Part shown: piece after piece, positions 33,065 to 34,061 of the stretch | How the letters are laid out: each line of letters starts with the position of its first letter | How positions within the stretch are numbered: position 1 is the first letter of the stretch | Origin: a virus | Virus record (IMG/VR): IMGVR_UViG_3300009103_000004 | Coordinates: 64,001 to 128,000 of that record | Strand: one strand, 5' to 3' | DNA: 64,000 nucleotides | Translations under genes and position numbers: made by a program | Notes under the pieces: generated by a model | What the model saw: only the letters and a program-made list of their open reading frames with translations | Databases searched by the model: none | Told to the model about the DNA's origin: nothing

Positions 33065-34061
33065 AACATAACAGAGCTTATACGAGCGTAACGTAACCCC
33101 CGTAACTTATCCCAAACAATCACATACGTAACTTGCCAAATCAGACAAGACACATCGCTACAAATCTCAAAACAACCCATCTTAGCTAAACCCACCAGAT
33201 CAGACAGAACATACCATATCATATTTTAACTCAGCTTAACGAGACACAACTCGACTAAAGCCATACCAATTGCTCAACATATCTGACCTAAAGCAACCCA
33301 GCTCATCCAAACGGAGCAAATCGAAGCTCGCCGGAACCCAACTCATCTTAACCTATCTGACATACCAGAACTGATACCATCTCATAACAGCGAAACTCAT
33401 CATAACAGAGCTGACTCAACAAAGCGGAACAAGTCTCATCATAGCGAAACTCAACAAAACAGAGCGGAACAGCCAAATCTTACCAGAACAAAGCGAAGCT
33501 TACCCCAGCTGAACTTATACTATCTTAACCCAGCTAATCAAATCAGCCACATTGGAGCGGAACTTATCCCATCTGAACCAGAAGCAACTTGACTCATCGT
33601 ATCTGCCGCAACTGATCGCAAAGCACCGCAACATAGCACACTAGAGCATATAATACCAGATCACATCTGCCGAAGCGAAACATAACTGAACATATCTTAA
33701 GCCAACAGGGCTCAACGAAACATATCTGACTTAACAGAACGTAGCCCAACTAAACACAGCAAAAGACTACTTAACATGTAACGCCATATCTGACTTAACA
33801 CAACTCGGGGCAACTCAGCACGTAGCATACCTACCGAACTTACGAGAACTTATCTGACTTAACGGAACGTATCTATACAAATCTCAGCCCATCCCATCTT
33901 AACTTATCTGACATAACAGAGCTGAACAAACCTGGCCGGAACCAAACCCATATCAACTCAGCTCGACAAAGGGGCATCGAATCTGACTTAACAGAGCATA
34001 GCTTATACGAACGTAGCAAAACGAATCCCAGCTAGACGAATCTGCCATAGCAAAACGGAAT
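33065..34061 (-). ncRNA. 5-nt-period guide-like array (GHT-NN)n, about 14 full units
   Basis: Plus strand reads A[ATG]C-NN in phase; boundary ATC-W-G[AC]C (first triplet AGC at 33409, AAC at 33468) at 33140, 33199, 33281, 33355, 33409, 33468, 33542, 33601, 33665, 33724, 33788, 33852, 33906, 33981, 34040. Confidence 0.88.

What the first reader, a model, noticed from the sequence alone, without database searches (positions are those of the whole stretch)
33475..33541. Unit decoding to a Walker A loop, [FL]YGxxxxGKS[FL]L
Seen: NN = TT TA GG AA AG AA CA GG AA TC TT CT AA TT. Known: hhhGxxxxGK[ST] is the P-loop; LYG....GKSFL is common in RepA/AAA-type helicases of phages and other mobile elements. 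Inference: the target is a replication ATPase of a rival element.
Basis: partly seen in the sequence, partly recalled or inferred. Interest (0 to 1): 0.75.

Follow-up and report, generated by a model that had tools for sequence, protein, structure and literature searches.

The report
Phage VIPR guide spelling a P-loop
This 70-base stretch is one guide-RNA gene in a phage's VIPR array (a CRISPR-like gene silencer first described in 2026); read two bases out of every three it spells the ATP-binding loop of an ATPase gene, but no gene that matches well enough to be its target was found.

Summary
The unit is one of 15 in a 1 kb array directly downstream of a 286-aa protein. That protein's only PDB sequence match is the SUSP1 Vipr protein (profile E 1.3e-9), and its model resembles Cas7/Csm3 RAMPs. 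I checked the rule on this array: a sibling guide hits in-frame HsdM genes in 14 of 401 genomes, against 0 for the control. The Walker A reading is unlikely to be chance (shuffles: 1.2%; 0.01% with hydrophobic flanks). The anchor [FL]YG....GKS[FL]L lands in frame in long ORFs in 93 of 101 phage hits; the representatives annotated are DnaC/IstB-like, RecA, AAA_25 RepA-type and terminase genes. No gene matches the four x codons as well: the best in-frame total is 21/28, below the published 80% cut-off. Exact-core scans of IMG/VR, GTDB genomes and JGI metagenomes gave only chance hits. The target is therefore unidentified, and "replication ATPase of a rival" is plausible but unproven. The scan has noted P-loop-spelling VIPR guides before, in at least four other genomes.

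The parts
33475..33544 (-). The vrRNA guide unit of this finding: 14 pentamers G-N-T + NN, giving 28 guide bases that specify a 41-bp gapped site NNx
   Evidence: folds no better than shuffled sequence (z -0.07)
33545..33548 (-). Upstream unit boundary GGCT, a 4-nt phase slip of the class G[GT]C[AT] followed by G[ACT]T
   Evidence: 15 such boundaries in the array
33471..33474 (-). Downstream unit boundary GGCT
33055..34062 (-). Whole array: about 200 pentamers in 15 units of 50-88 nt (10-17 pentamers) with no long tails; only 4-nt slips separate the units, which fits the published 'staggered' architecture
   Evidence: no Rfam family and no tRNA in it
34078..34108 (-). 12-bp GC-rich hairpin followed by a T-rich run, between vipr and the array (terminator-like or processing element)
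34133..34993 (-). vipr gene: 286-aa RAMP-like protein
   Evidence: PDB 36pp 'SUSP1 Vipr protein', E 1.7e-5 single sequence and 1.3e-9 with the clade profile, the only PDB sequence match at E <= 0.1; Foldseek top hits all Csm3/Cas7; 2,801 family representatives
35019..35669 (-). Candidate vap (accessory) gene, 216 aa, assigned by position only; function unknown
   Evidence: no Pfam family, PHROG of unknown function, no homologues, model pLDDT 41

Best explanation
The unit is one guide (vrRNA) of a phage-encoded VIPR system with a staggered, tail-less array and a non-canonical G-H-U scaffold. Inferred mechanism, taken from the published SUSP1 system: the array is transcribed from the minus strand with or after vipr. 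Vipr protomers polymerise along the RNA, each holding one G-H-U triplet and exposing the next two bases. The 14 exposed dinucleotides pair with a double-stranded DNA site of the form NNx repeated 14 times (41 bp), skipping every third base, and the bound filament blocks transcription. Read in frame, the site encodes [FL]YG[KN][SR][KN][HQ]GKS[FL]L[KN][FL], a Walker A P-loop with its preceding strand and following helix. The intended target is therefore most likely the P-loop-coding segment of an ATPase gene of a competing mobile element or of the host, chosen because these codon positions cannot change without destroying the enzyme. Shown here: the array, the Vipr homologue, the validity of the code for a sibling guide, absence of self-targeting, and the non-random P-loop reading. 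Inferred: expression, filament formation, silencing, and the identity of the target, which was not found.
For: Array anatomy. Vipr: the only PDB sequence match is SUSP1 Vipr; the conserved block NGIGEWRPS aligns with CGVGDWRPR of the solved protein; RAMP/Cas7 fold; large family. Phage origin: 167-kb IMG/VR virus record. Published code and staggered arrays. The code works on this array: the sibling guide AAxAAxGGxGGxGAxTTxTAxACxCCxAA hits 14 of 401 genomes at <=1 mismatch against 0 for the backwards control. The six fetched hits lie in frame as G-K-[KN]-G-G-E-F-Y-T-P, and three of them were annotated as N6_Mtase + HsdM_N. No self-target: best own-genome match 18/28, shuffled guides reach 19-22; own P-loop genes <=15/28. 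P-loop reading unlikely by chance. The anchor lands in real P-loop genes in 93/101 phage hits. Published precedent for guides placed on invariant codon positions of a catalytic core.
Against: No natural target. There were 0 exact hits in IMG/VR for 14, 12 or 10 NN. The 10-NN core (NN 2-11) gave 2 hits in 596 Gb of GTDB genomes and 1 in JGI metagenomes, all out of frame in rho or menB-like genes, about the number expected by chance. There were 0 hits at <=3 mismatches in 401 genomes of the phylum of G001, a Tissierella MAG. The guide does not recur in other IMG/VR arrays, unlike what earlier notes report for sibling guides. The scaffold is G-H-T, not the GGY that was tested biochemically. Expression and processing are untested, and a terminator-like hairpin lies between vipr and the array.
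Confidence: 0.55

Rival explanations
1. It is a genuine VIPR guide, but the Walker A reading is coincidence: the real target is some other sequence (another frame, a non-coding site, or another vrRNA or vipr gene of a rival).
For: No in-frame P-loop gene matches the x codons. The motif was chosen post hoc. Published vrRNAs also target regulators, vipr genes and other vrRNAs.
Against: A P-loop with correct hydrophobic flanks arises in only 0.01% of NN shuffles. About 90% of published natural guides are wobble-aligned to coding sequence. Both-strand, frame-blind scans found no alternative target either.
Confidence: 0.22
2. It is a motif-level guide. The conserved positions ([FL]YG, GKS, [FL]L) carry recognition and mismatches at the x codons are tolerated, so one guide dampens many DnaC-like, RecA-like or RepA-like ATPase genes of rivals.
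For: The anchor alone finds 93 real P-loop genes in phages, 65 of them with a [GD]VGT loop whose two annotated representatives are IstB/DnaC-like helicase loaders. A sibling guide sits on a family-wide motif.
Against: Such sites match only 17-21 of 28 bases, no better than random sites in the phage's own genome for shuffled guides. Published work uses >=80% NN, and perturbing NN pairing abolished silencing. The x codons would then be under no constraint, yet they read as sense codons.
Confidence: 0.08
3. It is an obsolete or decaying guide whose target lineage is gone or has escaped; it is kept only as part of the array.
For: No target in more than 1 Tb of sequence searched by exact cores. No recurrence in other arrays.
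Against: It is the longest fully regular unit of the array, with 13 of 14 scaffolds intact and clean boundaries. Exact-core scans miss most targets with 2-3 mismatches. The phage itself is nearly unsampled, so its rivals probably are too.
Confidence: 0.12
4. It is not a guide at all: a simple pentanucleotide repeat, a protein-coding stretch, or a structured RNA.
For: None beyond the absence of direct expression data.
Against: No ORF above 55 aa in the array. Variable NN within a fixed scaffold, punctuated units, an adjacent Vipr homologue, and a working code for a sibling unit. No excess RNA structure. No Rfam family.
Confidence: 0.03

Closest known systems
VIPR systems with staggered vrRNA arrays (bioRxiv 10.64898/2026.04.26.720920, fig. 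S18 legend)
   Same: Vipr RAMP protein next to a long intergenic array of pentamers with three fixed and two variable bases. Neighbouring guides abut with a 1-nt overlap, which appears here as a 4-nt phase slip at every boundary. Phage-encoded.
   Different: The scaffold is G-H-U (GUU > GAU > GCU), not GGY. It is also not one of the alternatives listed in that paper (NNNGG, YNNNG, NNNNG). I could read only the figure legend, so the match to 'staggered' rests on the text.
Type II VIPR of Escherichia phage SUSP1 (Vipr + Vap1 + vrRNAs; structure PDB 36pp; bioRxiv 10.64898/2026.04.26.720927)
   Same: Homologous Vipr C-terminal region including the glycine loop. 9-16 repeats per guide (here 14). 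NNx recognition code. No self-targeting.
   Different: Sequence similarity is confined to about 57 residues. Vipr here is 286 aa against 202 aa. There is no 3' tail or pseudoknot after each guide. The upstream 216-aa gene has no detectable similarity to anything known.
SUSP1 vrRNA4 against the satellite recombinase catalytic core (bioRxiv 10.64898/2026.10.15.759431)
   Same: The guide sits on invariant, amino-acid-determining codon positions of an enzyme's active site, with the skipped base at the wobble position.
   Different: There the target, an integrated satellite, is known and tested. Here the target gene is unknown and the motif is a P-loop rather than a recombinase core.
Non-canonical-scaffold VIPR clusters (GAC/NN, CAC/NN, WGT/NN, TGH/NN; bioRxiv 10.64898/2026.10.21.760802)
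   Same: Period-5 arrays with a Vipr-like fold nearby and a scaffold other than GGY, some degenerate at one position.
   Different: G-H-T is not among the motifs named in the text I could read.
Class 1 CRISPR Cas7 (Csm3) backbone filaments
   Same: RAMP fold; protomers polymerise on the guide and interrupt pairing periodically.
   Different: No CRISPR repeats or spacers and no other cas genes. Pairing is 2 of every 5 guide bases to 2 of every 3 target bases.

Membership tests
VIPR system | Vipr protein (minimal RAMP homologue) encoded next to the array | tested here: met
   Only PDB sequence match is SUSP1 Vipr, E 1.7e-5 (single sequence) and 1.3e-9 (profile). Foldseek top hits are all Csm3/Cas7, prob 0.9-1.0, but TM is only 0.3-0.46 on a model of pLDDT 59.
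VIPR system | vrRNA made of pentamers with a fixed trinucleotide alternating with hypervariable NN, 9-16 repeats per guide | tested here: met
   Lag-5 identity 0.44. G-N-T accounts for 131 of the 193 five-base units, and all 16 NN types occur. The cleanly parsed units hold 10-14 pentamers; this unit has 14.
VIPR system | Canonical GGY scaffold | tested here: not met
   GTT 55, GAT 37, GCT 30, GGT 9, GGC 3. The papers allow 'a related consensus' and non-canonical motifs, so this does not exclude membership.
VIPR system | 1-nt-skip (NNx) recognition, usually wobble-aligned to coding sequence | tested here: met
   Met for the array through a sibling guide: 14 of 401 genomes against 0 for the control; the six fetched hits are in frame and three were annotated as HsdM. 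For this unit itself the test is inconclusive, because no target was found.
VIPR system | No self-targeting at >=80% NN | tested here: met
   Best match in the 167-kb genome is 18/28 (64%), below the maxima of shuffled guides.
VIPR system | Accessory vap gene with a DNA-interacting function | tested here: inconclusive
   A 216-aa gene sits directly upstream on the same strand, but has no Pfam family, no homologues and a poor model.
VIPR system | Conserved 3' tail or pseudoknot after each guide (type II) | tested here: not met
   Units are separated only by G[GT]C[AT]. This fits the staggered architecture instead.
VIPR system | vrRNA expressed, processed and bound by Vipr; represses its target | not testable with these tools
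   Needs small-RNA sequencing, pull-down and reporter assays.
Guide aimed at a P-loop NTPase gene | NNx reading gives G-x4-G-K-[ST] with a hydrophobic strand before and a helix start after | tested here: met
   Direct reading; 0.01% of shuffles.
Guide aimed at a P-loop NTPase gene | A natural gene matching >=80% of the NN bases, in frame on its Walker A | tested here: not met
   Best in-frame hit is 21/28. Exact-core scans gave only chance hits. These scans are insensitive to targets with 2-5 mismatches, so this means 'not found', not 'absent'.
   The anchor residues fit these families, but so does a terminase, and the x codons fit none.

The most novel reading that the evidence does not exclude
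The unit is a motif-level guide. Together with its neighbours (HsdM, C5-methylase and other motif-spelling units) it forms an innate library of guides pre-aimed at the invariant codons of whole protein families. The P-loop guide would then silence many rival replication or recombination ATPases through the anchor [FL]YG/GKS[FL]L despite mismatches at the x codons.
Probability: 0.08. Interest if true: 0.7.

Novelty: new member of a known kind. Interest (0 to 1): 0.33.

Why it matters
VIPR is a months-old class, and very few natural guides have known targets. This unit adds an example, from a very poorly sampled 167-kb phage, of a guide whose informative bases fall on the most constrained codons of an enzyme active site, which is the logic proposed for the wobble-skipping code. 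It also shows that the code holds for a G-H-U scaffold that has not been tested biochemically. If the target were found, it would show which ATPase a large phage needs to silence in a rival or host. Without the target, the unit is a routine member of a known system.

Tried and rejected
1. Exact NNx scans of IMG/VR with 14, 12 (NN 1-12) and 10 (NN 3-12) dinucleotides gave 0 hits.
2. A scan with the x codons fixed (G[KN][SR][KN][HQ]GKS) gave 31 hits, only 6 in long in-frame ORFs. The only true P-loops were 2C helicases of picorna-like RNA viruses (L111, L120: RNA_helicase, with RdRP_1 in L111). I rejected these as targets because VIPR binds DNA in bacteria.
3. The 10-NN core in GTDB genomes and JGI metagenomes gave 3 out-of-frame chance hits.
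4. I looked for the same guide, or any Walker-A-anchored guide, in other arrays: 0 hits.
5. Close relatives of the phage or its Vipr were sought for sister arrays. There was no match in INPHARED, none in IMG/VR by the search for related loci, and only 8 Vipr homologues by word search.
The host is unknown, so mismatch-tolerant searches could be run only on an arbitrary phylum sample.
9. The vap structure model was too poor to search with.
10. I considered and rejected a tRNA array, an Rfam family, a structured RNA and a coding region.

Full report
**What is there.** On the minus strand, 33544-33475 consists of 14 pentamers, each a G-N-T triplet followed by two variable bases. Thirteen triplets are regular and one is TAT. 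The unit is bounded by 4-nt phase slips GGCT at 33548-33545 and 33474-33471.

The unit is one of 15 in a non-coding array at 33055-34062.
- The array holds about 200 pentamers, and identity at lag 5 is 0.44 against about 0.23 at other lags.
- The scaffold triplets are GTT (55), GAT (37) and GCT (30), with few GGT or GGC.
- Every boundary has the form G[GT]C[AT] followed by G[ACT]T and shifts the phase by one base.
- The array has no ORF above 55 aa, no tRNA and no Rfam family.
- This unit folds no better than shuffled sequence, z = -0.07.

**What system it belongs to.** Earlier notes of this scan named VIPR, and I checked that against the papers. VIPR systems consist of a minimal RAMP protein (Vipr), an accessory gene (vap) and vrRNAs of 9-16 pentamers, in which a fixed triplet (canonically GGY) alternates with hypervariable NN. 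The NN bases pair with double-stranded DNA while every third target base is skipped. In natural targets the skipped base usually falls on the codon wobble position.

The gene directly upstream of the array (34133-34993, minus strand, 286 aa) fits Vipr on several counts.
- It matches one thing in the whole PDB by sequence, the SUSP1 Vipr protein 36pp: E = 1.7e-5 with the single sequence and 1.3e-9 with a profile of its eight-member clade.
- The match covers the clade's most conserved block, which includes the glycine loop.
- A moderate AlphaFold model (pLDDT 59) finds only Csm3/Cas7 RAMP subunits at the top of a Foldseek search of the PDB.
- The clade profile reaches 2,801 cluster representatives of about 200-260 aa, but only 7 at E <= 1e-30. 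This is a small, divergent branch of a large family.

The window lies in a 167-kb IMG/VR virus record that CheckV rates 94% complete. The record has no relatives in INPHARED.

The tail-less units that abut with a one-base slip fit the 'staggered arrays' described in the legend of fig. S18 of the discovery paper. The G-H-U scaffold is not among the alternatives listed there, nor among those named in the later language-model survey. The 216-aa gene upstream of vipr is a candidate vap by position only.

**Does the code hold for this array?** I tested it myself with a sibling unit, 33908-33859, whose NN pairs read [KN][KN]GG[DE][FL]YTP. In 401 genomes sampled from one phylum (that of G001, a Tissierella MAG), its NNx pattern matched 14 genomes at one mismatch or fewer. 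The backwards control matched none.
- The six hits fetched as loci lie in frame as G-K-[KN]-G-G-E-F-Y-T-P. Three of them were annotated and carry N6_Mtase plus HsdM_N domains.
- The wobble bases vary freely among the hits.
- In 11 of the 14 hits the single mismatch falls in the last NN, which belongs to the conserved boundary GTTAA-GTCA rather than to the guide.
- So positions 4-5 of G-H-T-N-N are the informative bases, and the 1-nt-skip rule applies here.

**The Walker A reading.** As NNx codons the unit gives [FL]YG[KN][SR][KN][HQ]GKS[FL]L[KN][FL]. In 30,000 shuffles of the array's NN pairs, a G-x4-G-K-[ST] pattern turned up somewhere, in either orientation, in 1.2% of trials. With two hydrophobic boxes on each side it turned up in 0.01%. 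Even allowing for the post-hoc choice of motif, coincidence is unlikely.

The anchor pattern, with the four x codons left free, has 101 matches in IMG/VR.
- 93 of them lie in frame in open frames of at least 150 codons, and 91 of those read GKS.
- 65 carry FYG[GD]VGTGKSFLA; their two annotated representatives are IstB/DnaC-like helicase loaders.
- Annotated representatives of the other loop types include RecA, AAA_25 RepA-type helicases (one fused to Prim-Pol and PriCT_2) and one Terminase_3; four of the seventeen proteins scanned had no Pfam match.

**No target, however.** The same 93 genes match the remaining 12 guide bases at a mean of 1.6, and at most 5. None has more than one of the four x codons right, and the best in-frame total is 21/28, or 75%. 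The published cut-off is 80%. Other searches gave the following.
- Exact scans with 14, 12 and 10 NN found nothing in IMG/VR.
- Fixing the x codons gave 31 hits, of which 6 were in long in-frame ORFs, the one-in-six expected by chance.
- The only genuine P-loops among those 31, FGKSNQGKS, belong to polyproteins of picorna-like RNA viruses. These cannot be DNA targets in a bacterium.
- The 10-NN core (NN 2-11) has two matches in 596 Gb of GTDB genomes and one in the JGI metagenomes. All three are out of frame inside rho or menB-like genes, and the number is what chance predicts.
- At three mismatches or fewer there is no match in the 401 genomes where the sibling guide scored 14.
- There is no match in the phage's own genome: the best is 18/28, while shuffled guides reach 19-22. 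Its own P-loop genes score <=15/28, and its AAA_25 helicase (a DnaB-type loop) no more than 14/28 in any frame-aligned window.
- The guide does not recur in other IMG/VR arrays, either exactly over 10 NN or as any Walker-A-anchored guide.

**Limits.** Exact-core scans detect only a small share of targets that carry mismatches: about 29% with one mismatch, 7% with two and 2% with three, if mismatches fall at random. 'Not found' is therefore weak evidence of absence. 

**Verdict.** The unit is a VIPR guide (about 0.9). Its P-loop reading is probably meaningful (about 0.6-0.7). That the target is specifically a replication ATPase of a rival element is plausible but unproven (about 0.35). The scan has noted P-loop-spelling VIPR guides in at least four other genomes, mostly without a target. 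I did not check those notes, and they are leads rather than support. This is a new member of a known, very recent kind. Its interest lies mainly in the non-canonical scaffold and in the array as a whole, which other findings cover.

Noticed in passing
window 33859-33908 and boundaries such as 33855-33866: In units that end before a GTCA boundary, the last pentamer is always GTT-AA (conserved GTTAAGTCAGAT). In 11 of the 14 natural HsdM hits of the sibling guide, the single mismatch is in that last NN. It therefore belongs to the boundary signal and not to the guide.
   Followed up: partly
window 34078-34108 (-): A strong 12-bp hairpin with a T-rich tail lies between the vipr stop codon and the first array unit. 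A similar one lies at 35681-35709 upstream of the 216-aa gene. They could be terminators, attenuators or processing sites.
   Followed up: no
window 41004-41074 (-): Rfam tmRNA match (60 bits, above gathering) only 71 nt long. It may be a tRNA-like end piece or an attachment-site remnant, and it might reveal the host.
   Followed up: no
window 59535-59611 (-): A tRNA-Met (CAU) gene.
   Followed up: no
window 33913-33983 and 33206-33283 (-): Two units lose the pentamer phase internally (lengths 71 and 78 nt). They contain an indel or are degenerate, so their decoding needs a frame correction.
   Followed up: no
L111 and L120 (IMG/VR contigs 3300036891_000192, 3300019276_000069): Both are catalogued as viral contigs. 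They encode related polyproteins of picorna-like RNA viruses (35% identity): both carry the RNA_helicase domain, and L111 also carries RdRP_1 and a sub-threshold 3C protease match. Their 2C Walker A is FGKSNQGKS.
   Followed up: partly
window 29947-30819 (+): One of the few plus-strand genes, with a Fis-type HTH_8 domain, in a stretch of reversed GC skew (29-31 kb).
   Followed up: no
G000:154314-155765 (-), outside the window: The phage's own AAA_25/DnaB-type helicase (open frame of 484 codons, loop ATTGGGKTVLA). It is unrelated to the guide.
   Followed up: yes
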